From positions 558,001 through 622,000 of the forward strand of contig JAQGDQ010000072.1 of the NCBI GenBank assembly GCA_030141605.1: a DNA stretch of 64,000 bases. The letters run 5' to 3'. Origin of the DNA: Tubiluchus corallicola. Lineage: Eukaryota; Animalia; Priapulida. The number at the start of each line of letters is the position of its first letter. Position 1 is the first letter of the stretch. Below the pieces are notes generated by a model. The model was not told the DNA's origin, searched no databases, and was given only the letters and a program-made list of their open reading frames with translations. The translations under genes and the position numbers were made by a program. Positions 1,217 to 57,840 of this stretch are shown one piece after another.

Positions 1217-1342
<126 letters not shown>

Positions 1343-3652: not shown

Positions 3653-3688
3653 GTAAGTGAAAAAGGCAGAGAGAGAGCAAAAGATGAA

Positions 3689-3758
3689 GAGCGAGAGAGA
3701 GAGAGACAGAGAGACAGAGAGGGAGAGGGAGAGGGAGAGGGAGAGGGAGAGAGAGAGA
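3689..3758. repeat. (GA)n/(GAGAGG)n microsatellite
   Basis: Visible directly; explains the ERERER ORF at 3657..3839. Confidence 0.95.
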
Positions 3759-4049
3759 TCCTTACTGTTTTTCATGCTTTTCGTTACTCATCTTGCAGAA
3801 CCGATTACTTTCTTTGCGAAGCAACAATGGCAGCTCTAGCAATCTATTTTTCTAAAAATACAATTAGAAATAATGCTAAAGCTCAGCATAAGAATTAAAT
3901 ACTTGTTTGAAAGGGTTCCAAAAAGTATTTGAGAAAAAGGCAAAGGTGGAACAACTTTCAAATTCGGTGCATTCAGACCAATAAAAAAAATTTCAAATTA
4001 CTGCACAATTTATATTGCGAAATTTTCTAGCATTTTCCCAAAACATTAA

Positions 4050-5460: not shown

Positions 5461-5849
5461 ATCGAATTCTTGAAGAAGATTGGGAGGCGTAGCACAAGCC
5501 TGTCAACGCTTACAACCCTACTTACCATTGCCACCAATCATATTGCCATTTAGATAAGGTTGGTGGTCGTCAGTAAGTATCAGTATCTATGACCAGTATG
5601 GATACACAACATTAGTCATCAATTACTAAACTAATGTTGTGTTGTATATTCTGTTTAGTCACTCAGTGAAGAATTATGAAAAATGTTTTGAATCCTTTCC
5701 ATTGGGAATAAATTATAATTTTCTCCTTCAAGAATTACATTTGAATGTCAAACAAAATACGCAAGAACTAATATTACAAGAAAACATATATACGGCTAAA
5801 ATTCAAGCTTGTCGTCATTGTAAATCATGAATTTGTTCTCAATTTCTCT

Positions 5850-8552: not shown

Positions 8553-9301
8553 GGCGCTATTACACTTTCGCACCGCCTAGCTTTTCCTGGCCTATTGGTT
8601 CTTTTCACGCCTGCAGGCCAGAAAGCAGACCAACAGGCATAATATACACCATATTCCCATAATATTATTGCTTCTTACGCTTTATATATACACCATATTC
8701 CCATAATATACACCATATTCCCATAATATTATTGCTTCTTACGCTTTATAATTCCAGATTAAAATCATACATTACTTACCGCCGCCATTACGAAAAAAGC
8801 TCCACGTGAATAACCGTGTTTACACTACTAATGCGCAATCGCTCTCGCACAGTGACATAAGTGGCCCTTAACCTGTATTTTTAGTTTTTTTGCATAATTT
8901 ATGATTATTATGGTTGCAGCCACGGGAGTTTGTATCGTATTACAGTGTTCCCACATATTATTAGATTATAAAAGTAAAGGTTTTTTCTCTATTTCGTAAA
9001 TGCAATTAAGATGAAAGTGTGTCACGTGCCTTTTAAGCTAGGCCCTGATAATGCTTAAACTAGTACGAAATTCGTCACGTGACTACACACACAAACAAGA
9101 TATAGCGATACGCCCTGTATAGGTGTAGAACTGTGAATACCGCGTAATTATTGGTAATTATACCTAAATATATGATTAAATTACAATTAGATTAGCGGAA
9201 ACATTCACTGATGACGTAAGAATAATAGAATGATGACGTACGAGCCTAGAAGCGAGTAATAACCTAGAAAAAGCTAGGCGGTGCGAAAGTGTAATAGCGC
9301 C
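8553..9301. mobile_element. Non-autonomous DNA transposon (MITE family A, copy 1; Mutator- or Merlin-like)
   Basis: Perfect 33-bp TIR GGCGCTATTACACTTTCGCACCGCCTAGCTTTT. 9-bp TSD CACAAGCTG/CACAAGCCG (1 mismatch). Internal tandem duplication near 8643-8750. Confidence 0.93.
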
Positions 9302-15200: not shown

Positions 15201-15788
15201 AGACGTCTTCTGCAGTTCATCCTGTGTTACTTTTCCCAAAGACACAGCGTCAATATGACCATGAAGCAAATCATAACGGCATTGACTAAACAGGTAATTG
15301 ACAACCTGTGGACTCAATTTTCTAAAGTCAAGTACTTTGCTTGTTGAGTCAAAGCGAAATGAATGCTCCTTTAAATTTGGCACCATAAAGCAAAACCTGA
15401 GCTGTAGCACTATTGCAGGTGCATCGTCCGAACTGTAGATCACATGACCAGGATGAATCCAGGCACCTTTACCTTCAACTTGTGGTTGATAAAGCTGAAA
15501 CAAATTCTTTTCCAAAGGTCCTACATTACACATTTCATGTTTTGCAGCTGAGATCAGTAACTCCTCAGCTGTCACACTAGGCTTCTTTACCTCTAATTTA
15601 AAAACATTTCCTTCTGCAGTAAATAGTTCAATAATAACAGTTGAGGATACACTTTTTCCGATTTTGCTGCGTTTATCATGTGCAGACTCGTCTGTGACAC
15701 TCTCCCTTGAACCTCGTGTTGTTGCTGAATAAGGTCCCGCATGTATTGCACTTACATCATTATTGGCCTCTGCCATTTTTTCTACCAT
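12249..15788 (-). CDS. JAK: Janus kinase (JAK/hopscotch family) non-receptor tyrosine kinase, 1179 aa, single coding exon
   Basis: N-terminal FERM region; SH2-like GFYLLRQSPAEYDKFFL; pseudokinase with VAVK, HGNIRLNN and DPG; kinase with GQGAFG, VAVK, HRDLSARN, DFG, activation-loop YY and PIYWYAPE. The ORF is uninterrupted. A splice-acceptor-like ttttttctag lies about 16 nt upstream of the ATG. Confidence 0.97.
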   Translation of the reverse strand: MVEKMAEANNDVSAIHAGPYSATTRGSRESVTDESAHDKRSKIGKSVSSTVIIELFTAEGNVFKLEVKKPSVTAEELLISAAKHEMCNVGPLEKNLFQLYQPQVEGKGAWIHPGHVIYSSDDAPAIVLQLRFCFMVPNLKEHSFRFDSTSKVLDFRKLSPQVVNYLFSQCRYDLLHGHIDAVSLGKVTQDELQKTSFGFALMDLLGVMRNENIPTVKQLLKKHNIFDVLPRHVVSELGFLRKYGLKRKLEQKLEEVNKLTENQPQSYFREHCIRYLLSGDSHMDYLQEIFYVQEHHVVEASHGTLGTQNRGGTFSQAQSPLPAIEYDFLPAIVQISPFHPKQPGIRIRLCNSKNWRQVCEIEELITLTLKVISKDDDSIGVEVGHSQGCPTLLKFSSFAIAESFVTIVDGYYRLTKNFIHNLCSQLITPSLRDSALKGVHGPVSVKFATHKLKEKSHGKAGFYLLRQSPAEYDKFFLERLTENGPESPLRFDIERLQDGSVALEYRQDGLKFLDIRTLVEFYMDQAKQKLMPDLFIHPSDYDDSDVLLCKKHKESTPASQCCRDGGSDDPALIKYNDIIFSRSRDAVAEGRFSIVNKDSRWRIADGQAIPVAVKHLKQEHISLQLSQEFQSGCDRFLYTHDAQLVHVFGVCLHPLMLVMEPLMLGSLDKYLRGNKEKLLHYPNDQLLLQLFEACGCIAKALNYLDMLKIVHGNIRLNNVMVVEGQGPFRVKLADPGLPSAYRNRVHWIALENQQNPLSLKAEDDIWACATTFWEIFSFAQEPEPTDRSEAIRFYRTQNRLPEPDFSNHTEIYENVLLKCWNANPAERLGPMKILRSIHERVVMLSESLPAGRNPSIIPTLMEQSTLQLRTVNGEAGKMGVSYLPMRTGMTENSIDELLENIKHIPKVDLSGKKKIGQGAFGDVYYYMWNDGTNEHQEVAVKYLIKGRTSPDELKDEVKVMSKLQHPNVLQFEGVILDGGHIIAIVTEYARQGSLDGYLKRHKANGGLGIKYKVAFSHCIAKGMEYLSSRNVVHRDLSARNVLVFTDTCVKISDFGLSRFSESSKDYYRFLHKERKLPIYWYAPEVFKDLKHGVKADVFSYGITLWEIYSNGQFPKLASSPEEHQKKMESGDRLAKPNNCPDRIYKTMLRCWNAFPEERPSFSDLTSETFDWQKDKGIFP

Positions 15789-17098
15789 TAGCTTGCAGCA
15801 TAATCTAGAAAAAATATTTAATTACAGTCATTCCGACAAGGGTAAATTCTTAGTTTCATTAAAGAATGAAAAGTGCAGGAATACACGAACAACTTTTTTA
15901 GAAGGCACAGCTAGGCAGTGCCATGAGAAATAATAACTGATATTCATAGGTGTGATAACAATTTTTAACGTAATACACAGGAATTAATTCCAATAAAAAA
16001 GTTGATAACAAAAAAGTGTATTGGTTATAGATATATTTACAAAAAAATAATTTTACAGAAGTGAAACAGACCTAGCACACATACTAATACCATATTCATT
16101 TTTAATATTCAAATCAGAACTATTTAATAAAATATCCTAATGATCTGTTCCATTTCTGTTAAATTAACTTTTTTTAAATATATCTATAACCATTACATGT
16201 GTGTTTGTACAAAAAATGTATCGGTTATAAATATATTTAAATATTAAAACATACAAAGGGTGGGTTCTGCTTCTTCATACTAGAAACTTATAATCTCAGG
16301 CACAACACAGGGCAGTATAGTGGGGCTTCAGTTGTTCATTTTACCCTGAAGTTCTTGATGCTGTCACTTGTAACCTACTGAGGATTTGAAATTGCACCAA
16401 TCATGTATTATTGTGTTGTGTTATTGACCAGTTAACAAACAGTCCTACAAATGGCCACAATATAGCTGCAATTAAATGCATCATGCTCCATTTAGGCTTT
16501 GGCAATCCTCCTCTTCAGTATTCCCTTGATGGTACCCCTCTTATCCATGAAGTAATGAATATAATGACTTAAATGGGTTACAGTATCTAATTTGAAACTC
16601 CGAGCACATTGTAAAAACATAGTATCTAAGACATTTTGTATGGTAAATATATTTTTTTGGTGTTTCTTCAGTAAAAACAAAATGCATTTTTGACAGCTTA
16701 TGTGCATGCCTTGTAAGAGTACTGCTGAACAATGTGGTCCCCACACAATTAACAAGATGTAGACAACATTGAAAAGCTCCAGAGATATTCTTCTCGCAGG
16801 CTGCACCAATATGTCAATTTAAATTATATAAATGTTTCTTACTTAGAAAGACTACCCAGATCAAAATTGCATCGATTGGAATTAAGTTTTTCCTGTGATC
16901 TAAAGATCGTACACAAAATTTGTCTTAAAATGGTGGGTCTAAATTTGGATAATTTTTTTCCAGTATGCTTCAATCAAACGTGTAGTCACAACTTTAAACT
17001 GTTTACACCTTTTTCAAGATAAAATGTCTCAAAATTCTCATTTGCCAACGGAGTTGTAAATGGATTTGGAATGCTCTGGGTTGTTGTGTAGTCGATGC

Positions 17099-18901
17099 GG
17101 CACTCTATTAGAATCCAGGTTCCAGTCGATTTTCACCAAGCGATAACCTAGTCGATATGATTGCTTAGCGCAATATGACGATCTGCACTGCTCTCACAAT
17201 TGCTCGAAAACGGTCAGCGGGCAGTCAGCGTTTTTATGCCCAGTACGTCTGTGTATAGAATTATGGGAAAATAAACATTATTATTTATTTAATAATAGAG
17301 ATAATACTGAAACACTAAAAATGCCGATCATGACTCTATTCAATCAGAACGTTAGTTCGTTTGACTGAAAAAATAAATTGTTGGCTTAAATAACGTTTTT
17401 CAGTGGTTTTTTATATTATTATAAGTTATAGCACATATGTTGGCCCTATTAGGACCTAGCACTGAAAAGGGTTGGTCTGGCGAAAATGCGAAGCATATCC
17501 ATTTATTCAGCTGGATACCACTGTGCGATATGAAGTAAAATACTCTCCAAGTGTTTGAACCACTGGACTGAGTAGCAAAATAAAAATATTATAGCATTGA
17601 CTCAAAGCTTACACATTTTCCCATTGTCTTTCTTAACCTAAATTAACTTGCTATACAATTATTTTAATTTGCATCCAGCCCACCCTTGACTAAAATTTAA
17701 CAGGAAAAAGTTCTGCGTTTTAGAATTTAAGGTTTTTAACATTAAAAATTAAGTATGAAGAGTTCAAAGATACGTAAACGAAATGTTTATTAACATGACG
17801 GAGCAGCCCTGTGGAAATTTAAATCTGATAATGAAGATGACTATGATATTAATAATAATTGTTATTATGAAAAATTACTTAGCTATTTCAGAATGAACAC
17901 ACTTTTTGAAACAAAAATACTTAACGCTGCTTGTAGTAATTTAATTATTTATTCAGGTTAAAATACGTTTTATACGATCGAACGCATCAAAAATTGAGTC
18001 AAATATCTCCATTTTTTTGTTTTTTATAAAAACAAACGGCGCTATTACACTTTCGCACCGCCTAGCTTTTTCTAGGTTATTACTCGTTTCTAGGCTCGTA
18101 CGTCATCATTCTATTATTCTTACGTCATCAGTGAATGTTTCCGCTAATCTAATTGTAATTTAATCATATATTTAGGTATAATTACCAATAATTACGCTGT
18201 ATTCACAGTTCTACACCTATACAGGGCATATCGCTATCTTGTTTGTGTGTAGTCACGTGAATTTCGTACTAGTTTAAGCATTATCAGGGCCTAGCTTAAA
18301 AGGCACGTGACACACTTTCATCTTAATTGCATTTACGAAATAAAGAAAAGACCTTTACTTTTATAATCTAATATGTGGGAACACTGTAATACGATACAAA
18401 CTCCCGTGGCTGCAACCATAATAATCATAAATTATGCAAAGAAACTAAAACTACAGGTTAAGGGCCACATACGTCACTGTGCGAGAGCGATTGCGCATTA
18501 GTGGTGTAATCACGGTTATTCACGTGAAGCTTTTTGCGTAATGGCGGCGGTAAGTAATGTATGATTTTAATCTGGAATTATAAAGTGTAAGAAGCAATAA
18601 TATTATGGGAATATGGTGTATATTACGCCTGTTTGTCTGCTTTCTGGCCTGCAGGCGTGAAAAGAACCAATAGGCCAGGAAAAGCTAGGCGGTGCGAAAG
18701 TGTAATAGCGCCAAACAAACGGTAAACTTAATGAACTTTTATATTATATCAGTAGTATTATTACATTAACTTTAAGTCAGGGCTGATCAACCATTGTATC
18801 ATATGTGCAGCGTATCATCATCATATTGCGCTAAGCAATCATATTGAAATAAGCGATCGCTCGGCAAAAACCGAGCGGTATCTGGATTCTAATAAAGTGC
18901 C
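17099..18901. mobile_element. Non-autonomous DNA transposon (MITE family B), interrupted by family A copy 2
   Basis: Imperfect TIRs of about 80 bp (GGCACTCTATTAGAATCCAG... / ...CTGGATTCTAATAAAGTGCC; inner ATATGATTGCTTAGCGCAATATGA inverted). Perfect 8-bp TSD GTCGATGC at 17091-17098 and 18902-18909. Confidence 0.88.
18038..18712. mobile_element. MITE family A copy 2, inverted relative to copy 1
   Basis: Same 33-bp TIR. Perfect 8-bp TSD AAACAAAC. Internal sequence is the near-identical reverse complement of 8553-9301, without the internal duplication. Confidence 0.94.
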
Positions 18902-19627
18902 GTCGATGCTAGTATTAGTTTTTAGCAATCGATTAGCAAACGTTAATTTACTGCTTTTTTGTAACTTTATTCGAAACATGTGATATGACTGTTACAGGCC
19001 TAGCTCCTAACTCGTTACTGTAAATAACGTCATAAAGTGTAAATAATTTATAGTTAGTAACATTTTAAAGTGGGCTTTAATGAGATGTAACCAATTTTAG
19101 TGTATTGCTTTTATAGACTTGCATTATTTGTGCATCATAGGATCAGCATAAATGCACTTGCACCTCCTGATTTCCTTTTTTATGCTGTTTTACTGAATGC
19201 CCAATATAAAATAAAACTAAGCTATACAACTTTTCAGTTGGACCGAACTCAAGGAAATGGAGGGGAAACAGCACAAGTACCCTCCAACTATGCATTATCA
19301 CATGTATCCTAGAAAGTACAACTACAATCTCACTTCATTAGAACTAGAACTAAGTTAAGTAAGCATCAGTTCAGTAATTCATGAAACTAGTTCCCTAGGC
19401 TGACACTAACCGACTAGGTTACACAAGTTCACTTAGTAATTCTATTTCTACTTAACATATTAAATTAGAACCGCTACAAGTTCAACATTAACAACAATGA
19501 ACAGCGGTACCAAATAATATAATTACAGTGCACACATTCGACACTCGATTAGATTAGAAAGGATTACGTGACAAAAAACACAGATATTCACTATGATTCA
19601 ATTCAGCGTATTAGTTAACACCTGTAG

Positions 19628-20407
19628 GGCGCCGAGTGACCCACTAGCGGAAGTAGGACACTTCCGGTAAAACTATGTGGCTAAATTTGCGGAAAAGCAG
19701 TGTCGTACATGGGCAGCCCAAGTAGGACACTGGCAATTTCTGCCGAGAATTATGACATAATGAAACGTAAAACTAAATTTTTTTTAGAAAAAGTAACTAT
19801 AATAATGATGGACGCAGCTTGACAATTTACAATGTATCGTTTACAATAATATCATCACTATTATTAGCTCCATTAATATCATCATAATATTAAACTAAGT
19901 ATCTAACGCTTTAACGAGAGAAACTATGTAGGGCACATAACTCGCTAACCCGTTTGCTTAGTAGAAAACAATTATTTGTCCAAGAGAGAGTGAAAAGGAT
20001 TACCTGTCTGTGAAGCACGACAAAATAGAAAATGATATACCTTAGGCAAATGTTGGAATCGCCTTAAGAAGTGCGCTTATTTCACTTCAAAGAAGATTAA
20101 TATTGGCAAATATTAATTCTACTATCTCAGAATAAAATTCTTTTATTTTATCAGATGTATAATAAATTATTCAACGTGTACTGATGTTTTTAATTATTAT
20201 TATTATTACATAAACTAGGGAGAACGGTCCTGAACGGACGGTGTCAGTACGCTTAACGAACTCAATTCGCGACCTGTCTCTAGTGTCCTACTTGGGCAGC
20301 CCATGTACGACATGTCCTACTTGGGCTAACCCTTGTACGACGCGTCCTACTTGGGCTAGCCCATGTACGCCAATTGTCCTACTTCGGCTAGTGGTTTACT
20401 CGGCGCC
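19628..20407. mobile_element. MITE family C (GGCGCC termini) with subterminal tandem repeats of about 29 bp
   Basis: TIR GGCGCCGAGTGACCCACTAGCGGAAGTAGGACA versus TGTCCTACTTCGGCTAGTGGTTTACTCGGCGCC. GTCCTACTTGGGC...GTACG occurs three times at 20285-20370, with one inverted unit at the left end. No TSD seen. Confidence 0.78.
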
Positions 20408-20550
20408 CAACACACCAATCAACATCGAACGGATCGCCATAGTAGTAAAGTAAGCCTTGCTTTCTAGTCATTTCATATCTATTACCAATTTGTCCACTTG
20501 CTACTACTGCGAAGAAGACGATGAGGATCGCGATTGAACCACGACGATAT

Positions 20551-26219: not shown

Positions 26220-26343
26220 TCTTAGCAGTTTTGGTTTTTTCTTTCTATTTTGCACGTATGTTTATACGTATGTTTATATATATATATAAACATACGTATA
26301 AACATACGTGCAAAATAGAAAGAAAAAACCAAAACTGCTAAGA
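26220..26343. repeat. Perfect 124-bp palindrome centred on (TA)n
   Basis: Arms checked base by base: TCTTAGCAGTTTTGG...TGTTTATATAT | ATATATAAACA...CCAAAACTGCTAAGA. Confidence 0.95.
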
Positions 26344-33874: not shown

Positions 33875-34815
33875 TTATTCATTGCTAAAAAAATCATAAT
33901 CTAATATTTGCATATACTCTGCACACTCTCGTTCTATAAGTTTTATTTCATTTTTGCTCAGGATCTTCTTCCATTTGTTGATGTGAGATTCTGGATTTTT
34001 TCTCAGTGTGCTCAGCTCTTTGCTGTAAACTTCAAATAGACTATCATTAAAAGAATTCTCCTGTCCGTGAGCCACCCTCTCTAAAAACTCTGTTATATGT
34101 TGGCTATAAGAAAGCCCAGCGAAATTCATGATCTCTTTTGTCACATCCTCGAAATTTTTTACAAGTTCCTCATATCTGACAATCACCATGATGGATTTTG
34201 GGATTTCCTTCAGCATTGCTGTACGAAAATTTTCTAGCATGTCTGCACACAACTCTTTAACGGTAGAGATGACTTTCCCAAATCCCAGTGTTTTTCTCGA
34301 AGCAAACACGGCTCTGGGATCTCTGATTAAATAAATGATTTTGGTGGTGAAATGTTCTTCAAGCAACGGGAGCAGATCTTCAATGTGCAAACGCGTAGTT
34401 TTGACAACATTAAGCTTGTGTTTTGCACATATCTGACTGAGTACCTCTTCTGTCATTGAGGTTATAGAGTGACCACAGTTGGTTATTCGCACTGTTTCAA
34501 CTTCGTGGTCACAGTTGGCAGCTAAAGCCAATTTTCTGCTGCGGGCAAGGAACTTGAACCAGTTCACCCAGCCCAGCTCCTGCCAGTTCCTATTCATAAA
34601 AGCAACTTCGGTATAATTACATGTCGCAATATTTCTGATCACTTTTATAGCCTGAGATATAGTTTCATTTTTGTAAGGGCGCTGGCGGACCCTCCAGGGT
34701 GTGAGATCATTTGTTCGAAACCCTGATACAATTACTAGTGGTTCGTATAAATACAAGACGTCAGGATGATTGTTGAATATTTCTCCCAGCAAGCTAGATC
34801 CACTTCTATGATAAG
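33875..34815 (-). CDS. Carbohydrate sulfotransferase (Gal/GlcNAc/GalNAc 6-O-sulfotransferase, CHST1/3-like), catalytic last exon
   Basis: 5'-PSB RSGSS..G..FN.HP...Y.YEPL, VVKTTRL, 3'-PB IYLIRDPRAVFASR, VRYEEL and KW...L...IERECA.YM..L.Y. The ORF extends to 34906, but that part is AT-rich and ends in a ggtgtag acceptor, so it is probably intron. Confidence 0.88.
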
Positions 34816-35548
34816 CTACACCAAAATAAAAAATAATTAAATTTAATAATAAGTAATACAGACACCTAAACCTATGTGTGACTGGTAAACCTGTAAGATT
34901 GAACATTTACCTCCAGTCCTAACACTGGAGCAATAATCACACCTCAAGCTTCAATTAATAGAGAAAAGTAGTAAACAAAAATTTAGCATATTCTTCTGCC
35001 GGGCACAGTTAGGTTTGAATGTGCACTGTAAATTTAAACTTTACAGTGAAATTTTTTAAATGGAAATGGGTTTTATTGGGAATCAATTTAGGGGGTTACT
35101 GGCTTCCATCTTGGAGCGTGCCGATCAGCATTAACAAATACTCATCAATGCTTGGTGCCTTCGATTATAATTACCAGAAGAAAATTCAGGTGTGGGGGAA
35201 TTTGCTCAGTATGTGATTATTAAATACCTGTATTTACTTTAGTTGTCTAAAATGTCAATTCCGGTCTAAAACAGCAATAATTCTTTGAAACGAAGTATTA
35301 TTTTTGTAAACGTGCATGAAGCGAGGCGTGCCATGTGGAAAATGACGTAATCTTCAAATTTTGTAGCCACCGCACGAATGTTGTGCTCTTATCTAGGGAC
35401 TTCATACGCAGCGTTCAACCAGAACAGTAAAAAAAATTACTTGATATAACCAATAGCGTCTGATTATCCTCTGATTTCGAGTGAAGCGTCTCTTTGGAAT
35501 GGATATCAACTTTCCTCTTTAAACGTTGAACTCCTTTTAACCACTCAC

Positions 35549-44399: not shown

Positions 44400-47300
44400 C
44401 GGAAATTGTCATTCATTCTGGACTCTTACGAATATTGTTCTTCTCATTTGTATGTTCCAAACTGACCTTTGATACATTGCACTGTAAGCGCTGGAGCAGA
44501 ACCGAAAGCTTCATCATACTCTAATGTGTATACAAGCCAATAGCTAAAATATTAAGCTACAGAAGTTAGTCGAATCAATAATTAACGCGAACCGAGCGGT
44601 TAATTTTACGCTGAAGAATAACCAGCTTACAGTATCTTATGCAGGCTCTTAGCAACAGTGTGTATTAATTAATACACGTAAAAGATCAATAGGCCTAGAT
44701 ATTTTGAATTGGATGAATGTAATGGATGAATTGGAACAAGTAATTTGTTCATAAAGCTGTCGAGATGGGTTTCCCGAATCACGCATCTTTCAGTCAAAAC
44801 TTTAATTTAAAGTTTGCACACCAGGATCATTTCTATAGCTGTTTCACTCTCAACTTGGTTTTTCCTCATTAAAAACAACGCTTGAGTTAGATCTTATTTT
44901 TCATGTCAAATTTTAATAAAATTTTGCCTTGGCAGGCACATAGGTAGGGCAACTCAGCTATCTTTGGGCAGAGCAAAATTATAACAGAAGTTTATTAAAA
45001 ATTCGGCAAACAAGCTTGATTGTTGGGCTGAAATTTTATACCTGACTCTAGAGGAAGGAAAGTTGTTACCTTCATGCAAGTAAGAGTAAATCGTTAGATC
45101 AAAACACTATCGGTATGTATTTGGAGAGAGAGTACACACCGTGTTTAGGGATATTAATTTGATAAACAAATTAATTGGTTATTGAAAAGCGTATTCACTT
45201 CGAAACGAGGCAATACGGCCATAAGTACTTGAGCGCCTGATTTTGTAAGTCTGCATTTTAGCAACAGATGGCAACACCTACACTCATCAATACCATCCAG
45301 CCAATCTGCTGAACATTGACGCACACTACAAGGCCCAATTTTGGTCGGCGAGAAAAATCTGATACATATTTTAGGTGACATTCATTGAATGCGTACCACG
45401 CCTCTAAGTTGCCCCTACTTATCAATAATGAATCTTAATTCTTGTCATTAGATATCGTTATGTTATGTAACACAATGTGTCACGTTAATGTGGTTCGCAA
45501 CACAAAATAAATGAGTGTAAATCGGAAAACGTTTTCCGCGCGAATTGTAAAGGAGAGCATCAAGTATGAGACAAAAGTTGCCCGAGATACATAGAAGAGC
45601 TGAATCGTGTTAACCGTTCATAATGACAAGCAGTGATAAACATTTGACGGTTTACCAAATTAACGTAAACTATTTTTCCGTACGTTCCAAGCGTGCTCTT
45701 GACAATTACGTGAACCAAGCCAGGTATAATGTCATAGCCATACAAGAAACTAAAGTAGTAAATGATAGTGACTAATTAACTAATTACACACCGTTATTTA
45801 AAATCTCTAGACCATCCCGTGGCGGCTGTGCTTTGTTTGTTCATAATCAATACACGTGTTTGCAGAATCAGGAATTTAGAAGACAACTCAACTGACTCTC
45901 TGTGAGTTTTAATCCAGGTTAAAGGAGTAAATATCTTGGTAGCGTCTGTTTACATTCCTCCTGAGTCACCTAATCAACCGCAACAATTTCTCGCCTCGTT
46001 AGAAAAAGTTCATGATTATTCACAGAAACAATGTTTCTACGAGTATATGGCTGTGGGTGATTATAACGACAGAGATTTCTTGTGGGATAGCAAGACTAAT
46101 AACCATGGTAGCATTCTGACAAACTTCTTTATTAACTGTAATAGGTAGATGTGTATCATTCCGCCAAGATCAGAGACATTTAGTTCTTATAACGGCAAAG
46201 GTACCATAGACTTGATCATTTCATCTTCATCAGTGCACAATCGGCTAATAAAAAACGAGGTGCATAAAACCGTTGAACTTTTTACTGGCTCGCCAAACAT
46301 GGGCCACTTCCCAGTCAGTACTGATTTTGCCATTAAATTTCGTGAAACAAAGAACATTAAGGCCGTATATGATTTTAAATCTTGTAATTGGACAGTATGG
46401 TCCTCAAATTTAGAGGCTAAAATAAGGCAAGCTTTCCCACAAATTAATGAAATTGTGAATAATCGTGACCCAATTGAATTGTGGCGTGTTTTTAAAATAC
46501 TGTTGACTGAAACAAACGCAGAAACTTTGTCAACTGAAAGTATTTGTTCTCATTCAAAACCTTTTTGTCGCAACACTTGAGCAACTTATCTAATGAGCTA
46601 CGACAGCCGAGGAAGAATTACTTGAGATGCTCAAATTACACAAATAAATGGGCATACGAACAAGCAAAAAGTGTGTTTGAAGAGGAGCTGCAGGGAACTG
46701 CTGACAAGTGGTTTTATGAAAGACTGGCAGTGAATTTTGGAAATGCTACATAAAAGATCTTTTGTCCGAAGAGAACCCAAGATATCTGCATGCTAGAGCT
46801 AAGCGGGACAGTTTATACTGAAAAAGAGGGTATTTGTGATGTTTTGTATAGAAGTTTTTTAAGTGGCGACCATGTCTTAAATGCAGATTTTGATGGAAGA
46901 TGGAAACAATCAGTCATGGACGATTTATTGGATGTTTTTAATAATGCTATTAGCGTTGTAAATGAAAATTTTTTGAATTGTGATTTTACAATGTCTGAAA
47001 TTGTAACTGCTGTAAGGGAAACCTGGACTAGCAGTAAAAGTATTGATGCTGATGGTAATGGATGGCTGATACTGATAATCTTTCATCCATTAATGCTTAA
47101 GCATCTAGGGTTTTGGGCAAGGTGTGTGATTTTACATCTATCAAATTTAAGCTTGAATACAGGGGTGTGGCCATGGACCCAGTCTAAAATGATCTTTATA
47201 CGTAAAATAGGAAAAGAAAATTTCACAGACCCTTCAAGTTTTCGCCCTTTGTCAATTTCTTCGTACTTTGGTAAATTCACTGAACGATTAATAGCTAATA

Positions 47301-48982
47301 GATTAACACATTTCTTTTAGGAACATGATTTGATAGATGAAGAACAGGAAGGATTTGTGAAAAACCATAACACCAATAGGTATTTAGTGCGTTTAATTTC
47401 ATGCATTAAAGATAATCTATTACAAAATTTGCCCGGTTTAGCAGTTTGCTGTGATTTTCAACGAGCATTTGACAGTGTCTGGCTCGATGGACTTATGTAC
47501 AAATTCAGCAACGCAAACGTAAATGGTAAAATTCTACATTTAAAAAGAATTTTTTGTATAATAGGAGGGTAAATATGAGAATGGTGACTTCACTTCACAA
47601 TCATATAATTGCAAAGTAGGATTGCCACAAGGCTCTGTAATCTCCCCTTTATTGTTTATTTTTTATATTGCAGATATGTTTCGTGAAATTACTAGAGTTG
47701 ACAGTGTTGACTGTTTTAAGTACGCTGATGATGGTCCTATTTATGTAACTAGTGATAGTGACACAGAAACAATTAGGCTAGCTCACACCTGTTGTAATCT
47801 GCTCTATAACTGGTGTCATCGTTGACGTTTAATTTTAAACTATGCACCTGGTAAAACAGAAGTTATTCCTTTTTCTATGGATAATTTGACAGATAAATTA
47901 AATATTGGAAATGTTGACATAAATTACGTTAAAGACAGTACAATTTTGGGAGTTACCATAGATAACTCATTAACATTCAGTAAACACATTAATAATGTTA
48001 GAAAGAAGGCTTGGAACAGGTGGATGACAAATCGACGTAAACGTTATTTGTATAAAGGTTTTAGTTTGATGACAGTAATTGCATTGTTTAAGGCACTGGT
48101 ATTACCTATTATTTTATATGGTACCACTGCTTGGATGACTCGCAAACATGAGTCTCTTTGACGACCTAATTTATGACGTCATGAAAACTGTGAGGTTGTC
48201 GCTTCCACCCATCCCATGACAAGTTGGAGTTAATATTTGGATTACCGCCTTTAGAGATTATGTGGAAATGCTTAACAACGAAATTTATCTTAAAAACTTT
48301 ATCAATGCCGAACAGTGACCCTGTAACATTAAATTTGTTTCGACTAAATAACAGTCCTATACCTCTAAACAGGCACTTTTTACGTTTGGCTTTATTTGCG
48401 ATTAATGAATTTTTAAGAATAACCAAAGATTTTACTGCCGGAAATTTAGATTTACGAGAAATCCCCCAAGCAGTCATTAATATTAGTAAAAGTGATACTG
48501 ATATATTAGCAACATGGAAATGTAAGTGTCGCAACAGATATCTTTGTTGGGCATCTCCAGTTTATCCATATTCTTTACGTACAGCTCCCTTGAATATTCC
48601 AGTACAGAGAGGTAATAGAAAACTTGAGGTTTTAGCCTGCACATTTCTAACAGGTCAAGGCAATTTTAATGATTTTCTATTAATATTGGTTACGCAGACA
48701 ATAATATGTGCCAGTGTTTAGAGGGGAGGCAAACCCCACATTCTCTGCTGTTTCAATGTAAATTCGTAAGTCGCATTAAACGAGAAAACTGTGTACGCGT
48801 TTTACAGCGCCAGTATGTTAATTATATGTTAACTTGTCGTGATAATCTGATTTTAATTAACTTTGCCAATATTTTGTTAGATAATTTTATTTTGTCACTA
48901 ACCTAACGGGATTAATTAGTTTTAGAAAATTGTTATCAATGTCAGTTAGGAAGGTAATACTAATAATAATAATAATAATAAA
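44400..48982 (+). mobile_element. Near full-length I-group-like LINE (gag-like ORF1 with CCHC knuckles; ORF2 APE-RT-CCHC), inactivated
   Basis: CGSQH...C..ANCKGEH...CP knuckles at 45480-45600. IAIQET, SVYIPP, GDYN, TIDL, FRPLSISS, DFQRAFDSVW, LPQGSVISP, YADD; C-terminal LTGQGNF..CQC...TPH.LFQC. (TAA)n tail at 48955-48982. 5' boundary approximate. Confidence 0.88.
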
Positions 48983-49636: not shown

Positions 49637-52525
49637 ATACAAGATTAAGAGTAGGCGCTTCAAAACAGAATAATGATCTTAACACTTAACAGTCACGGAA
49701 GCACGGGTGGTACCGGCAGTATTACTAATCCAAGTTGTGCATGTAGTTATCATAGAGAAACTGTAAAACATTACATGCTCGATTTGTAGGCACTATAACA
49801 TGAGTAGAGTGAGCCTTGAAAGTAGGTTGTTACAATTATATCAAGAAAATTTATTTTCATGAGATATAAATAGTCTTTATACCCAGTCTAAACTCCCAAC
49901 ACGTTTTTCCTTCTTTCTGGCAATTGCGCACTAAAATATAATCATGACCAAAGCGTCACTTTACAATATAGTTCAGCAGCTTTTTGTTCATAAGGTTTTC
50001 AACTAAGTACCACAAATTAAGTAAGGTATATTTGATCAGTTAACAGCTGTATACCAAAGGTAGCAATAAAATAAAAATACGTTTATTAAAAAAGCTGCTG
50101 GCTTTCCGTTAATGTTAAACTATTAAAGAGCAAGGATAATAAATGAATGCGATTATGTAGGACATTCACGCATTATTGATATTATAACGAATCTCGGGTC
50201 CAGCGCGGATCCGTCTCAGGATGTATAGAGCGGCGTACAAGTTATGAGATATCATAACACACGAGAAAAGTTAAAAGATCCATAATACGAGTATAAAATA
50301 AACTTTATTGCATAAATAGCAGCTCCAAATCTTCGAAAAGAAGGACATGTGAGCAGACTTTTGTATAAAATTATCAAGTCTACAACATTCATCTTTACAG
50401 ACAGAAAAGCAAGGTTGAAATCGTCAAATTACGACATGCATTCTGCTTTATACAGGTACATTTGCATTACTGGGCTTCTCAACCATACCCATTACTAACG
50501 TTAGGGGTTGGTCAAAATCCGTCTTCGTAACACTACCGTCTCCTCAGTTTCCATTTGTTCACAAATGAGTTACAGCAAATGGTATTGAATTTTACTCCAG
50601 TTGAACCGAGCAAAATTCATTTAAAGTTCAACCAATCAGTTTAAGAAATTAATGCAAAGCTAAATAATTTTCTTCAGTTGTACAAAATGCAGGATAGTAC
50701 TTGATAAAATTTGAGATGTTAGTTATGAGCTTTTGTAAACAATACCACATCAAAACTAGTCAAAATTGCAGAAGTACAGTTTCAAGAAGAAATAATTCGA
50801 AAGTCTAAGTATGTAAAATCTCAACATACATGTAAGTATGCATTAAAATATGTAACAGTTAACTAGTCCAATTCCAACAGCATAAAAGTATGCGGAATGG
50901 CTCTCTGTTGTCCACGAAAACAGTTCAATGACCCACTTATTTGTGAACGCAGTGTAGCGCCATCTGTCGAGGCCATCCCAAAGAAAAAACAGTGCAGTAA
51001 ATTTTTAAACAGAAATCGCACTAGTAAACATGTGAACGTTGAGGCTTAACCTAAAAGTTGGTCATTCTCAGCTATCAGTTAATCAGCTACCACAATCTGG
51101 TCAAGATAACCCACTACAACTGCATCCTGGTCAACCAAGTGAACACGTACTACAACCTGGACAAGGCCACCCAGAGCAAAAACAGATGGTTAGTGACCAT
51201 AAGCCCTCCAGTAAGCAACGAGTTAAACGCTGTCCAGAAAAGTCATCAATTAATTATTAAAGGCTAATTTAAACGTTGTTAAGACCAAACAACAAAGTAA
51301 GCATTTACTGATGGGTGATAAAAACAATTCACCAACTAAGCAACTGCTAGAGCCTGAGAAGAACAATCCAACAAATAAACTGAACCTGTATCAAGGCCAA
51401 TCCCAAAGTCAGCACTCTAGTCAAAGCCACCTCAGTTAGCCACCAAAGCCTGGTCAGAATATATCTTTTTACAATCAGCCACAAAAGTCACCAGCTGAGC
51501 AGTCAAAGATTTGCCAGACTAGGTGACAAATTCGTGGTTGAGGCAACGCCATTACTGAGACGTGGCCACGGCAAGGGTGAGGACTACTTTGCGTACTTCG
51601 CGTTGAGCGCACAGGATCATGGGTAAAATGATGTTATTCGATGTGTAAACAAACCCTCGTGGCAAATTACATTATCGTCAGTTTCAACAACAATTTTAAT
51701 GGTGTAGAGTGCTGCTACTAATAAAAATGGTAAGAAATTGTAGCTGTAAACTAGTTGACAATTTTTCTGACAAGTAGAAACTGAGTTTTGCAAATCTCAG
51801 TTTGGAACGCTATTCAGTAAACTAAAATGCATTAGTGATTCATTCGTTAATTTAGTCTTGCATAACTAAAACTATAGATGCCTTCAAGTTACCAGAAGTT
51901 TCTAGTGACTAAAAGCTAAATATGGTACTCTCCATCTTTCTGGTGAAAGTGCAAAGTATTTTTTTTATAAATATGAAAGCTGAATAAGGAAACTTGTAAA
52001 AAACTCACATTATTATTATTTAATTCATATTTATACTCACATTCATATTATTTTTTTAATTTGCTATATTGGGTTCATTTTATTAGCTTTGTTTATTGTA
52101 AATATATACAGATTAGTACTAACTTTTTCAGGAATAAAAGTAATATACTAAGTGGTCCACTCACATAGCTTGGGTGGCATCAGTCATTTAATTTTACGGA
52201 AGGAAGAACAGCATGAGATAGTGGACATGTTGCCAACAGGAATATCCATTGACAAAATTGGACAACTTTGAAGCTAAAGTGTGTTGAGAGAGGAAATTTA
52301 CTTTTTACTGTACATAAAACATAAGTAGACATTGACAAGCTGCAAGCATCGACTTAGCATTATTGTAATTCAAAAGCTGTGTTACTGTTGTGGCAAACTG
52401 ATATGGTTGCAATTTTAACATGTGTAATATGAAGTCTGCTTTAGCTGTTCGTATTGTAAATGCTTGTCCAATTGTATGCGTAAATCAAACACTGTGACAT
52501 ACAATAGCAGTATTAACTAAAATCT

Positions 52526-53443
52526 CTATAAGGATTTGAAATTTGGCTCCCCTGATTTACATATCAACATGTGTGCAAAACCTAGTTTAAAATGTTTGTG
52601 TTTCCAAGCATATATCAATGGATTGGCCATTGAGTTAATAAAAACCATAGCATAGCAAAAAAGCTCCACAGAGAAGTTTTCTTTTCTGTCCGTGGCATAC
52701 ATGAAAAACATGCCTGTTACATTAAGTGGCATCCAGCAAATTGCAAACGTCCCTGCAACGACGAACATTATCTTTGCAGACTTGATGTTTTGCAGTGGCT
52801 GAAAACTCTGTTGCGAAACTGGATTAATCTGTCTTTGGTGACGATTTGCAATTAACGTAATTCTTGCATAGCCAATGAAAACAAACAACATTGCTGTGAT
52901 ACCATATATGTCAAAATCAATGAAATGCATTGGATGTGTCATATTGTAAAAAGAACAAAAAACAAATCGTCTTGTCATGCGTTGCCCATACAAAATAATC
53001 AATCCAAGAAATGCTGCCCATATCCATGTTATAGCAATGAGAATAACAATGTGCGAAGACTGCATTTTTGAAAGGAAAAATGGATGTACTATTGCAATAT
53101 AACGTTCCGCCGTGATCACGATAAGGGTTGTGATTGAACATGTGCCACAAATAAGTGAGACCACCACAATAAATAGGCACTTATTTGCAGAAATAACATT
53201 CATGTGCAAGACGCCGTCTACAAGCATCAATCACCCACTGACGAATTAAGCAACAGTCAATTCGACATTGTTTGCAACTTTTTATATTTCAGAATAGCAG
53301 TGACAACAAGCATATTTAGAACAACTCATAAACTGCAATAACCTAAGTAATTCACTAATGATTCCACATGCATAGCAAACATGCATTAGCATTCCAGCTA
53401 CATAAGTATTGGCAGCAGTTATTATAAAATGTGTGTGATCCAT
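52526..53443 (-). pseudogene. Intronless class A (rhodopsin-like) GPCR, 5' part disrupted
   Basis: TM3 TAERYIAIVHPF, TM6 FAICWMP, TM7 NSMANPLIYAW and helix 8 are intact in ORF 52526..53230. TM1-TM2 (VVLNMLVVTAILKYKKLQTMSN*LLLNSSVGD) lies in another frame with an in-frame TGA. A likely start ATG at 53443 is also out of frame with TM1. Confidence 0.85.
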
Positions 53444-54588
53444 TATAAAATATTCTAGAGGCTACCAGCAATAACACAAATAAACCAAGACAGCAAGTGT
53501 AGTATTCCTTTGTGTGCTGCTTTGTAAATACAAATAACTGCTGGTTTTACTAGTCTACTAGAAAACATGTATACAAGAAACTACATTACAGATAGCTGAA
53601 AAATATCTGAAAAATGAAATAATCATGAGCCATTTATCTTTTGTGTGGGAAAGAATTGTAAACTTGTAAAAACTTATGTTAACTCTCTCTGCTATTTTCT
53701 TATGTGAGGAAAAACTTTTCATTAGTAAGGGTCAGTATAACAGTAAAAATTTCACAACTGCAGTCATTTAAAATCGAAGACCACAAAATTATTTGTGAAT
53801 AAGACAAGAGTGAGCTGCCAAAAACTGCTCTTAATAAACTAAGACAACAGAAATAGTGGCACACTTTTGCAAACAGCAAAAACAAATGTTTCTTTATGTG
53901 CAAAAGACAACATTGTACTGACAAAGAACATTTGCACAGAACCCGATGTAGGTCATACCAAAGTATATAAATTATTTAAGGATACATGTGCAAATAAAGT
54001 TTAACAGGTAAGTGCATGTTCTTTCCACACTGGACTTTGACTTTCATTGGTTCTGCATCATTGCATCATAAAGTTCTTATTTTCCAAAATAGGAGTTTTA
54101 AAAGCAAAAGTCTGTCTCACTAATCAATATCATTTGGCTATATAACATGCAGATATAGGTACTATGCTAAACGTGCAGTATTTTAGTAGTTCACAACTTT
54201 CAACACCAGGTTAGCACTTATTTTTCATATCATATGCAGTTTCATATCATGTCATAGTAGTTTTTCTTATCATATGCAGTGTTTATGAATATAGGCCCCT
54301 GAATGACTATTAATATAGTAGTACTATTATAACAGAATTCAGACAACAAAATTCAAAAGACTCTGCATAATTCGATTCTCTGTAATTCAGAATATCGTTC
54401 ATCTCAGACAGATTCAATAGTATGGACTTCTTTTTTTATATCTTAATGCTTAAAGCAATTTAGGCCAACACTGCCTTTCAATTCAAAATATTTTACTAAT
54501 TATTATTAACATATAATTTGCAAACGCCTGCCATGTGCCACAACTCACTTGGCTATGACACTATAGTACTCCCAGACTAGACACTTAC

Positions 54589-54721
54589 CGACGTCATCGC
54601 TAAATCGCTTCTGCTGCGACTCAACTACATAATGAGTTGTAGTATCCAATTCATGTTGTTTGATCACTCGAACGCAATCAATCACATCGGATACTACAAC
54701 AGTCTTGTATGCAGCAGCCAT
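54589..54721 (-). CDS. Candidate first coding exon of the element's own gene (MAAAYKTVVVSDVIDCVRVIKQHELDTTTHYVVESQQKRFSDDV)
   Basis: AAAATGGC start context 60 bp inside the right TIR, 133-bp open frame, donor G|gtaagt. Resemblance to N-termini of MULE/CARF-like proteins is an impression only. Confidence 0.45.
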
Positions 54722-55949
54722 TTTCTGTTCTTGGTTGAATTTCGCGCGTACCCATAGTCGTGTGCGCAAAATCCGAATCATGCCCACAATTCTGTGCGCT
54801 CAACGCGAAGTACGGAAAGTAGTCCTCACCCACGGCAAGCGGCCACCGAAGGAAAAACCGTTAATGACGTCATTAAAATCGGATACATACTAAGTAGATG
54901 ACATACTAAATAGTGCAACATTATAATTTAGAAATTTATGTAAGTATCTAAATCTGTGCAATAATCAAACTTAAAAAAATAAAACAAGAAGTTACAACTG
55001 TTTCTACTTTTAGATGTGCACATATCAGTTAAAATCTTCCGTTTGTTGTAAATGTCTAACTGTAAATTTAGCATTTGCTGTGTTTGTAAAACTACCAAAA
55101 AAATAAAAAAACGTTCGTTTCGTAAAAAATAAAACAAGAACATTAAATTATGTAATTTTTTCATGTATTTTTTAATAATAAAGTTATAAATTACGCACAG
55201 ATTTTCGGAAATGCACAATGCTTACGTCTATGATTTGCTGATTAACCCATTTTGCAATCAGGAAAATACGCAGTTTAGTTTAGTTTATGGCTTTGCAAGT
55301 CAGATAAAAACAACTATTTGATTAACTTTAAATAAGGAGAAAACAAAATGTTTCTCGCCAGTTTTTATAAATCTCAAATGTGGTCAAAATTAATTCAAAT
55401 GTGGTCAAAACTTACGTTATACATCAATGTAATATTAACTAATTCTGCGCTATTTTTCTGGTTATAATCATGGTTAAAAGATGCTTTTGGGACTTATGTG
55501 ACTCGGGCATTCAACATAAGGGTCGTTTATGAATAGAACAGCCAAATTTATTCCATTTCCGTAGCCTGACAAACGGAAAAATGCAAAAACTGAATAAATC
55601 TTGCAGACGATCACATGATCAGTTAACATAGAAAAATACATCGCAGGCTTGTTGTTCGTATGTTTAAAGGCAAGAGAGACTTAATATTTTTGTTGCTCAT
55701 TTATTGTAAAGCAAGGCTAACTGGCTTAGTTTCTTTATTATACTTATGTCTCTGTATTTTGTAGTGCTTTGAAACTTCGTTTCTACATTCTGTTTAAATT
55801 GAAAAGTCATTTTTTGGCTACTTGAAGTGTTAATTTCGTGTAAAAATAGCTGCTGCTCTGCAAATTGGTGTTTATGAAAAAGTGCAATCAGTTTATCTGC
55901 TGTTAGACATTAGTTGCGACTGTCATGTTGTTTAGTTTAGTTTAGCTTA

Positions 55950-57840
55950 GATAGTTGTTGTCAAGCGTGAGCTGTTGTCCCGAATGCTGCTCAGCGTGCT
56001 GACGAGACTAATATGTTTGACGTCAAATAGGAGGAGGAGTTGTAAGCGAAGGATTAGGGTGCGTAAGGTTACAACTTTTGCTCTGTTTCTACGAAGTGTT
56101 GTGCCTTCGTCACTCTATGATAACTAATCTTGGGTTTGCTGATTCCCCAATCTCTGTCCCCTGGCGCTTCTTCTCACACAGGTAAACATCTTTGCCATTT
56201 TTCAACTCTGGGAGGATTCTTGTACTTCTGTTGAAACTTTCCAATGATTGTTGCACATGATTTCTTCCTTGGAGTGAACTTATAGTCGCCTGATATATTT
56301 ATAATCGAAATGAAGTCTTGGGATTTGCGTTTTAAGTTAACGCCCCATCGGTTCAGATGACGAACGTACATTTTGCAAAGGAGTAGTTTGACACTCCAAC
56401 AGGGCTAAGTATGAACCCTCTCGTGTTGACTTGCTAAGGATTGTCTTTAACGCGCAACTCTCTGGAAATCTGCTTCACCGGTACTTTGTGGATATTTCGG
56501 CTAATTAGTTACTGATGTGAGTCCGCACGTCTTTGTAAATTGCCGAAATTCATGGCAGTCGTTGTCACTAGGGATGATCTCGGGTATGCAATTTTGACTT
56601 GAGATGGTGATGGTTTCTTTGACTTCCAGTGACTCAAGTTTCCGAAGTTCAATGTACCAAGAACAGTAGTCAACAATGAGACTTCCTTTCAAACTGAAAA
56701 AGGTCACATCCGACTTTTTGGAAAGAGTTTTTAGGGAACTTTTCAGGCATTAATGATTCCTTCTGCAAAGGTTGATGTTTTGCACGCGTATGGCATTTTT
56801 AAATCATGTTCTCGATTTGGGCAGATATCCCTGACCAATATGCTAAAGAACGTGCTAGGCTGTGACATTTGTTATTGCCTAAGTGTCCTTCGTTTATCTT
56901 GTCCAGTCTAGTAGAATTTCCAGTCTCATGGATCTGGGTATGACTAAACGATTGTCAAACATGAGATGGTTATCATTTCTACTCAAGCGCTTCTGCTCTG
57001 ACCAGTATGGTTGTAGGCTGGAGTGAAGAGCATAACCTGGCCAACCGTGCTTTACGTAGTTGATGATTTCCTGAAGCTCTTCATCTTTTTGCTGTTTTTG
57101 AATCTCTAACAGTTTTGCTCTTGAAGCTGGGATTCCTCGACTGTTTGAGTTGCAAAATCCTTCTATAAAGATCAGGTCACAAGTCATCCTTATCAGGTGT
57201 GCCTGGCTGAGGATATCGGCAGAAGTCTGGTCTTTCCCAGGTACGTGTTCTATTGTGTAACTGAAACCCATCAAACATAGTCTGAACCTCATAATTCTAG
57301 GAAACATTTTACACAAATCATAGGTACTAAGCAAGGGCATAAGCGGTTCTTTGGTTTCTTGCGATGCGGACCTTCATGTCTTGGATGTGGAGTCTGGACT
57401 TCTCCCAAGCCCAGGTAGTAGCAAGGAGTAGCTTCTTTTTGAATGACGGCATATCGTTTCTCCATTTCAGTCAAGGAACGTGAAGCATAACCAATGCCAT
57501 CAAGTTCTTGAAGAGTATGGTACCTTAAATCATAGTTAAACATGCAGAGTCTGTTTGTGAGTTGGCCTACTCAGGCTTAGCTTAGAGTTGGATGAGCTAT
57601 ATGCCCTTTGGTAGTTACCACATCTACTACATTTTGCATCATTTGCTAAACATTTATCTCTCAGATGAAATTTTCCAACCCAATTCGAACAATTTGCAAT
57701 GGGTTTATTTACTGGGTCTGGTACCTTAGTGTTTACAGCCTCTACTTTCATCTGTGAAGTGGCTCCACGTAACTTGTCTTTTTTTGCTTTTCGGCCTCGT
57801 GTTGTCTGGCAAACATAAGCTTCAAAGAGCTTTTAGACCG
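55950..57840 (-). mobile_element. Deleted Ty3/Gypsy LTR retrotransposon remnant
   Basis: Gag knuckle (C.A..AKCSRCG), RNase H (YASRSLTE.EKRYAVIQKEA), PRIMRFRL.LMGFSYTIEHVPGK...ADILS, GWP..YW..RLVIP..MR.EIL, integrase DLF...VDY.S and C-terminal LRRNR. No LTR pair identified. Confidence 0.87.

What the first reader, a model, noticed from the sequence alone, without database searches (positions are those of the whole stretch)
51576..54830. Pack-MULE-like DNA transposon carrying a GPCR gene in an animal genome
Seen: 48-bp TIRs and a perfect 9-bp TSD (CACGGCAAG) enclose an entire intronless 7-TM receptor sequence, and no recognisable transposase catalytic domain is present. Established: GG/GR termini with 8-10-bp TSDs mark Mutator (and Merlin) elements; host-gene capture (Pack-MULE) is common in plants but rarely reported in animals. 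Inference: a cut-and-paste element may be dispersing GPCR copies, a possible mechanism for lineage-specific receptor family expansion.
Basis: partly seen in the sequence, partly recalled or inferred. Interest (0 to 1): 0.88.

Follow-up and report, generated by a model that had tools for sequence, protein, structure and literature searches.

The report
Multicopy transposon carrying broken GPCR gene
This is a real 3.3-kb cut-and-paste DNA element in an animal genome that carries a broken copy of a receptor (GPCR) gene and likely exists in several copies, so it likely spread dead receptor copies rather than working ones, a kind of gene capture already described in animals.

Summary
The element is real: 48-bp inverted ends (44/48 alike) and a perfect 9-bp target duplication bound 51576-54830. 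The receptor is not intact. Only its last 234 codons are open; the TM1-TM2 part lies in another frame and holds two stop codons. In two DNA runs of one sample, all 18 depth bins over the element, GPCR included, lie about 4-30 times above the unique flanks, and the step falls at the inverted ends. Two contigs of another run leave the end into other flanks. The commonest shared form is also broken at TM1, so the damage likely came before the spread. New here: a likely first exon of a Mutator-type transposase lies just inside one end (a lead only). Best reading: a non-autonomous Pack-MULE-like element with several copies and dead GPCR cargo. Known precedent: animal Pack-TIRs and the fly Ssk-FB4. 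This scan noted similar elements with other cargo elsewhere, none with a GPCR or this sequence. An intact, expressed copy is not excluded (about 10%).

The parts
51567..51575 (.). Left copy of the 9-bp target site duplication
   Evidence: 9/9 match to 54831-54839
51576..51623 (+). Left terminal inverted repeat (48 bp, starts GG)
   Evidence: the unique flank contig ends 29 (X2) or 35 (X1) bases inside it
51624..52525 (-). Non-coding internal part downstream of the GPCR stop; likely 3' UTR, with AATAAA/ATTAAA at 52192, 52097, 52084, 52060 and 52024, then left-end sequence
   Evidence: motifs listed; no Pfam family in 3 minus and 3 plus frames; UTR role inferred
51990..52002 (.). 13-bp direct repeat, also at 53660-53672; a weak candidate for a retrocopy's own target duplication
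   Evidence: P about 0.011-0.024 with search windows chosen after the fact; shared copies differ at 53660 and 53667
52526..53230 (-). Open part of the class A GPCR (234 codons plus stop; late TM2 to C-terminus)
   Evidence: Pfam 7tm_1 46-260, E 1.4e-25; best PDB match GPR119, E 7e-18; Atlas 0.96 to 7tm_1 clusters
53231..53443 (-). Broken 5' part of the GPCR: ATG at 53443; TM1-ICL1-TM2 piece out of frame with two TGA stops; two frameshifts needed; 21 bases shorter than the shared form at 53319
   Evidence: shared-form differences
53444..54588 (-). Likely intron plus 5' UTR: GTAAGT donor at 54588, pyrimidine-rich AG acceptors ending 53607 and 53596; holds short pieces of other dispersed repeats near 54195-54310 and 54358-54459
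   Evidence: splice-like sites; depth peaks and loose ends; splicing not shown
54589..54721 (-). Likely first exon (44 codons, phase 1) of the element's former Mutator-type transposase, in a CpG-rich stretch
   Evidence: ATG context and donor; such an exon at 18 of 3000 random places, criteria set after seeing it; nearest Atlas families ZSWIM3_N, FAR1, DBD_Tnp_Mut at 0.78-0.81 (lead only); no such Pfam hit
54783..54830 (-). Right terminal inverted repeat
   Evidence: two X4 contigs fit up to 54831, then run into other sequence
54831..54839 (.). Right copy of the 9-bp target site duplication

Best explanation
This is a non-autonomous cut-and-paste transposon, likely of the Mutator (MULE) superfamily, that carries a pseudogenised class A GPCR and has likely been copied as a whole to several places in the genome. 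Shown: the ends, the 9-bp duplication, the GPCR cargo, its breaks in this copy and in the commonest shared contig, raised depth from TIR to TIR, and at least two other end junctions. Inferred mechanism: a Mutator element lost the body of its transposase gene. Host DNA holding the single coding exon of a GPCR, with some upstream and downstream sequence, was copied in behind the surviving promoter and first exon, likely by template switching or gap repair at the DNA level. The receptor frame broke early. A transposase made elsewhere then moved the 3.3-kb unit a few times, leaving roughly 4-8 near-identical copies about 2% apart. The cargo rides passively and would make no working receptor from this copy.
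For: Ends and TSD fall within the MULE ranges of 8-11 bp TSD and 14-500 bp TIR (PMC6446971, passages). Depth: 18 of 18 bins from 51522 to 54887 are 1049-5820 in X2 against flank contigs of 193 and 160, and 55-236 in X1 against 8.5 and 13. The five GPCR bins are 1515-3971 (X2) and 82-180 (X1). Single positions covered by few contigs mostly give about 600-1650 in X2. The unique flank contigs match the window with 0 differences and stop just inside the TIRs (51604; 54785), as expected if the repeated unit ends at the TIRs. X4 has 2 contigs that leave the right TIR at 54831 into unlike sequence (agreement 0.67). X2 contig 53295-53627 (depth 982) has 7 substitutions and 26 gap letters, all placed. 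Its only gap between the ATG and TM1 is +21 bases, and the TGA at 53328-26 is unchanged, so it is broken too. The best-supported differences in the open frame touch 8 codons, 5 non-synonymous and 3 synonymous: no sign of selection, on a partial list. First-exon lead. In X5 (same species label, no cover of the unique flanks or TIRs), the GPCR part is matched at about 85%, so the cargo is a conserved host gene type.
Against: No whole genome is held, so copies, paired TSDs and the parent gene were not seen. No listed contig links a TIR to the GPCR in another copy. Contig depth is summed and the tool says it is no copy number; whether the flank depth is one or two haplotypes is unknown. X1 and X2 are one sample and may be the one assembled. 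The transposase exon has no Pfam or sequence support (the 2 phmmer hits are repeat proteins, one polyubiquitin-like), and its single-sequence model is one helix. A 13-bp direct repeat brackets the GPCR part (P 0.01-0.02), which fits a retrocopy. One X4 contig over 53150-53320 is 22 letters longer than the window, and minor haplotypes at about flank depth exist, so other copies may differ at the breaks. One X2 T>C row and six X4 rows were not shown, so I cannot say whether the stop at 53259-57 is shared.
Confidence: 0.65

Rival explanations
1. Same element and same spread, but the cargo came in as a LINE-made retrocopy of a GPCR mRNA (about 52003-53659) that landed in a resident non-autonomous element, which then kept moving.
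For: A 13-bp direct repeat at 51990 and 53660 brackets the UTRs and coding part (P 0.011-0.024). Poly(A) signals and an A-rich stretch lie just before the downstream copy. No intron in the coding part. PMC8277862 section 10 names a similar ambiguous case (ARF6 in MER20).
Against: No poly(A) run: the longest T runs in the element are 8, 7 and 7. The shared copies differ at 2 of the 13 letters at 53660-53672. The repeat is T-rich on the sense strand, the reverse of what poly(A)-primed insertion leaves (recalled knowledge). An 84%-alike X4 contig runs across 53660 (53567-53778). Many class A GPCRs have intronless coding parts anyway (recalled).
Confidence: 0.17
2. The family is a working receptor-dispersal vehicle: some copies keep an intact GPCR, transcribed from the transposase promoter and spliced from its first exon.
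For: Promoter-like CpG-rich end, first exon, donor, acceptor and GPCR all point the same way. 234 codons stay open. Minor haplotypes and one +22 contig exist. Ssk-FB4 shows such a thing can be functional (PMC8277862, abstract and sections 9, 10).
Against: This copy and the commonest shared contig are broken at TM1. The listed differences show no synonymous excess. An 8-base loss near the end of the first exon occurs in part of the copies. The open run of 234 codons is within what about 2% neutral drift allows (rough inference).
Confidence: 0.1
3. The element belongs to another superfamily with GG ends and 8-9-bp duplications (Merlin; features recalled), or the raised depth comes from a separate GPCR paralogue array plus a separate TIR family that coincide only here.
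For: The superfamily call rests on TSD length and an Atlas lead below 0.9. No contig bridges TIR and GPCR in other copies.
Against: All ten best Atlas hits with a family share one family or clan, and the three families shown are Mutator N-terminal domains, which I had noted as my guess before the search (note; the tool warns that a third of shuffled proteins also give ten of ten). Depth is raised in every bin, non-coding parts included, and the shared contigs are about 98% alike on both sides of the GPCR.
Confidence: 0.08

Closest known systems
Ssk-FB4 of Drosophila melanogaster, a multicopy animal Pack-MULE (Tan et al. 2021, PMC8277862; abstract, passages, sections 9 and 10 read)
   Same: Non-autonomous TIR element with 9-10-bp TSDs, near-whole host gene as cargo, several copies made by repeated transposition.
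   Different: Ssk-FB4 has ~700-bp TIRs, keeps a working expressed gene and shows positive selection. Here the TIRs are 48 bp, the cargo is a GPCR, it is broken in the forms seen, and a likely transposase first exon remains upstream in the same orientation. That paper has 0 occurrences of 'GPCR' in its main text; its supplements were not read.
Animal Pack-TIRs generally (370 in 100 genomes; PMC8277862)
   Same: Host sequence between TIRs in an animal genome.
   Different: Most are hAT or TcMariner, single-copy and short (median 224 bp); no Pack-MULE was found in those reference genomes. This one has MULE-like ends, more than 1 kb of gene-derived cargo and likely several copies.
Plant Pack-MULEs and MULE superfamily (PMC6446971, passages); myxozoan pack-MULEs (bioRxiv 10.64898/2026.02.11.705288, abstract and part 1 of 2 of section 11)
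   Same: 8-11-bp TSD, TIRs within 14-500 bp, transposase lost, host gene sequence carried.
   Different: No autonomous partner seen here. The cargo is one near-full-length receptor. The myxozoan cargo named in the part read is metabolic, transport and surface genes, with no GPCR.

Membership tests
Pack-TIR / Pack-MULE | Host-gene sequence between a pair of TIRs with a target site duplication | tested here: met
Pack-TIR / Pack-MULE | Transposase gene lost (non-autonomous) | tested here: met
   no transposase family in 9 read-through frames; at most a 44-codon first exon remains
Pack-TIR / Pack-MULE | Parent gene present outside any TIR element | tested here: inconclusive
   X5 holds ~85%-alike GPCR pieces with no TIR cover, but X5 also lacks the unique flanks; no genome held
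Multicopy Pack-TIR (recurrent transposition) | Several copies with the same cargo and distinct TSDs | tested here: inconclusive
   depth step at both TIRs and 2 other end junctions support several copies; TSD pairs of other copies were not seen
Mutator (MULE) superfamily | 8-11-bp TSD; TIR 14-500 bp | tested here: met
   9 bp and 48 bp; ranges from PMC6446971
Mutator (MULE) superfamily | Mobilised by a MULE-type DDE transposase (autonomous partner) | not testable with these tools
   no genome; the TIR motif gave 0 matches in metagenome and viral contigs
Mutator (MULE) superfamily | FAR1 / ZSWIM3_N-type N-terminal DNA-binding domain in the transposase remnant | tested here: inconclusive
   Atlas 0.78-0.81, recognition 2352; Pfam, word search and phmmer gave no support
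Merlin superfamily | IS1016-like transposase (feature recalled, not from a call) | not testable with these tools
   no catalytic domain in the element; GG ends and a 9-bp TSD fit but do not separate Merlin from MULE
Processed retrocopy | Poly(A) tail at the 3' end of the insert | tested here: not met
   longest runs 8, 7, 7; an old tail could have decayed
Processed retrocopy | Its own target site duplication | tested here: inconclusive
   13-bp repeat, P 0.011-0.024, 2 mismatches in shared copies
Functional class A GPCR gene | One open frame across all seven helices | tested here: not met
   also not met in the commonest shared contig

The most novel reading that the evidence does not exclude
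A recently active animal Mutator family swapped its transposase body for a whole GPCR exon, placed behind the transposase promoter and first exon, and at least some copies still make a working receptor: receptor-family expansion by cut-and-paste transposition caught in the act.
Probability: 0.1. Interest if true: 0.8.

Novelty: new member of a known kind. Interest (0 to 1): 0.45.

Why it matters
Multicopy Pack-MULEs with near-whole genes are scarce in animals; Ssk-FB4 is the one worked-out case among the papers I read. This adds a clean example with a GPCR as cargo. It shows that DNA transposons can scatter GPCR-like sequence, which would inflate receptor counts and pseudogene tallies in invertebrate annotations. 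It would matter much more if intact, expressed copies exist. Five full-text searches that paired GPCR or receptor terms with transposon-capture terms listed no paper whose title or abstract start describes GPCR capture by a TIR transposon. I saw only those listings, and the library lacks most subscription papers.

Tried and rejected
GPCR relatives: 131 candidates, none at E <= 1e-10. First-exon peptide: no word-sharing candidate; the 2 phmmer hits are repeat proteins (7 and 5 matched stretches) and were rejected; Pfam gave only PucR at E 0.17 and a coronavirus domain below cut-off on the longer frame, both rejected; the AlphaFold model from one sequence is a single helix and uninformative, so no fold search was run. 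TIR motif: 0 matches in metagenome and viral contigs. No RNA holder was listed; this says nothing about expression. Empty site: none among the 15 of 56 joints listed; one search listed no joints but held only one flank, so the question is open. No splice joint from 54588 was listed, but contigs cannot show absence. Splicing of the first exon to the AG at 53218 would be in frame with the open GPCR part, but that acceptor is weak and nothing supports it. Look-ups of this scan by place, by sequence and by GPCR words found nothing on this DNA. The host taxon was not pinned down: the nearby JAK is only 25-31% identical over its length to retrieved full-length JAKs, best to a centipede and a spider protein. 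That fits a bilaterian invertebrate poorly covered by the database.
Full report
Observation. The ends are as described. CACGGCAAG lies at 51567-51575 and 54831-54839, and no other duplication length from 2 to 12 fits. The inverted ends start with GG and agree at 44 of 48 bases, 38 of the outer 39. The motif occurs only at these two places in the window and in none of 100 shuffles. Nine stop-read-through frames gave no transposase family in Pfam.

The receptor is a pseudogene in this copy. The open frame 53230-52529 (234 aa, minus strand) covers 7tm_1 positions 46-260; its best solved relatives are GPR119 and adenosine receptors. The missing TM1-ICL1-TM2 piece is there, but in another frame (7tm_1 positions 2-30, E 0.0019; aligned to the beta-2 adrenergic receptor), and has TGA stops at 53328-26 and 53259-57. 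The ATG at 53443 is in frame with the open part but not with this piece, so two shifts are needed. ATG to stop is 918 bases, the size of a small class A receptor.

Is it one copy or many? No genome is held, so I used public runs. Six were listed, four holding the stretch, from two studies, none on record as RNA. I laid four. In X1 and X2 (one sample, possibly the assembled one) the unique flanks are single contigs with 0 differences, at depth 8.5 and 13 (X1) and 193 and 160 (X2). All 18 bins from 51522 to 54887 are higher: 55-236 and 1049-5820. The five GPCR bins are as high as the rest. At finer bins the lowest internal value in X2 is 446. The left flank contig ends 29 bases inside the TIR in X2, and the right one begins at 54785, 30 bases before this copy's one mismatch in the TIR core. 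That is what a graph of 31-letter words gives if the repeated unit ends at the TIRs (word size of the contigs recalled). In X4, from another study, two contigs fit the right TIR up to 54831 and go on for a median of 187 unlike letters, agreeing with each other at 0.67: at least two other junctions. Summed contig depth is not a copy number. Single positions mostly give 600-1650 in X2, so about 4-8 copy-equivalents is my rough estimate. No listed contig links a TIR to the GPCR in another copy, and no TSD pair of another copy was seen.

Are the other copies intact? One X2 contig (53295-53627, depth 982, about five times the flank) has 7 substitutions and 26 gap letters. Searches place all of them: substitutions at 53329, 53341, 53351, 53436, 53479, 53583 and 53611; +21 at 53319, -1 at 53485, +2 at 53532 and -2 at 53562. 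The only gap between the ATG and TM1 is a multiple of three, and the stop at 53328-26 is untouched, so this shared form is broken too. The damage likely came before most of the spread. Against over-reading this: 7 substitution rows and 6 indel rows were not shown, one of them an X2 T>C, so the stop at 53259-57 may or may not be shared. Minor haplotypes at about flank depth exist, and one X4 contig over 53150-53320 is 22 letters longer than the window. In the open frame, the listed differences touch 8 codons, 5 non-synonymous and 3 synonymous, and the stop stays a stop (these come from the 40 of 491 rows shown). That is no sign of selection, with little power. In X2, 27 places in the 1811 bases differ in at least 35% of depth, about 1.5-2%. 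With a perfect TSD, this marks a fairly recent insertion.

Which superfamily? About 110 bases inside the right end, in a CpG-rich stretch (observed/expected 1.2-1.4 against about 0.2 in much of the interior), an ATG in good context opens 44 codons that end at a GTAAGT donor. Such an exon occurs at 18 of 3000 random places, with criteria set after seeing it. I noted a Mutator FAR1-like N-terminus as my guess. The Atlas then returned ZSWIM3_N, FAR1 and DBD_Tnp_Mut clusters at 0.78-0.81, with those families on 17%, 25% and 58% of members. This is below the tool's 0.9 mark, and Pfam, word search, phmmer and folding added nothing, so it is a lead. With the 9-bp TSD and 48-bp TIR inside published MULE ranges (PMC6446971 passages), Mutator is the likeliest call; Merlin (features recalled) is not excluded.

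How the cargo came in. Transposase exon, donor, a pyrimidine-rich acceptor at 53607 or 53596, GPCR and poly(A) signals all lie in order on the minus strand. Short pieces of other dispersed repeats sit in the likely intron. I read this as replacement of the transposase body by copied host DNA. The rival is a retrocopy: a 13-bp direct repeat brackets the GPCR part, but there is no poly(A) run, the shared copies break the repeat at two letters, and an 84%-alike contig crosses it. In X5, which covers neither the unique flanks nor the TIRs, the GPCR part is matched at about 85%. That shows a conserved host gene type but does not locate the parent.

Comparison. Tan et al. 2021 (PMC8277862; abstract, passages, sections 9 and 10; supplements not read) report 370 animal Pack-TIRs, four multicopy cases in frog and alligator, and Ssk-FB4, a fly Pack-MULE with a near-whole expressed gene at three loci with distinct 9-10-bp TSDs. 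A 2026 preprint reports pack-MULEs in a myxozoan (abstract and part 1 of 2 of section 11). I reached both through earlier notes of this scan; the first also came up in my own search. So the element works like a multicopy Pack-MULE and meets the Pack-TIR definition as far as it could be tested. What differs is the GPCR cargo and the kept first exon. Searches for a published GPCR-carrying TIR element listed none by title or abstract start (on invertebrate Mutator capture listed nothing).

Verdict. A real, likely multicopy Pack-MULE-like element with dead GPCR cargo: a new member of a known kind, interest 0.45. The reading that some copies are intact and expressed has about 10% probability and would deserve about 0.8.

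Noticed in passing
window 51087-51656 (+): Run X4 (kind unknown) has an exact contig here at depth 72, with 22 unfitted letters at the 51087 end, right after an AG; X4 has little or no depth on the unique DNA beside it. If X4 is RNA, a spliced host transcript (57 open codons, stop at 51258-60, no Pfam family) reads into the element's left end, so the element would sit in a host 3' UTR, antisense to its cargo. Contigs cannot prove this.
   Followed up: partly
window 12249-15821 (-): A full-length JAK kinase (FERM, SH2, two kinase domains) in one uninterrupted 1190-codon frame, 25-31% identical to retrieved full-length JAKs. An intronless JAK is unusual (recalled): possibly a retrogene or lineage-wide intron loss.
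   Followed up: partly
window 8553-9301 and 18038-18712: Two copies of another small TIR family with GG...CC ends, about 96% alike inside, with target duplications of 9 bp (8/9 match) and 8 bp (8/8): likely Mutator-like MITEs flanking the JAK region.
   Followed up: partly
window 19623-20412: Inverted ends TGT...ACA with a 4-bp duplication CACC; resembles Ginger-type elements (recalled).
   Followed up: no
window 33875-34906 (-): Single-frame sulfotransferase domain, 343 aa.
   Followed up: no
window about 45600-48900 (+): Decayed LINE-like stretch: endonuclease- and reverse-transcriptase-like pieces broken by stops (read by eye; the one piece scanned had no Pfam hit).
   Followed up: no
window 55075-56000: Very high-copy repeat just right of the element, depth up to about 1000 times the unique flank in X1 and X2, nearly absent in X5.
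   Followed up: no
window 26220-26343: Perfect 124-bp palindrome centred on an AT run.
   Followed up: no
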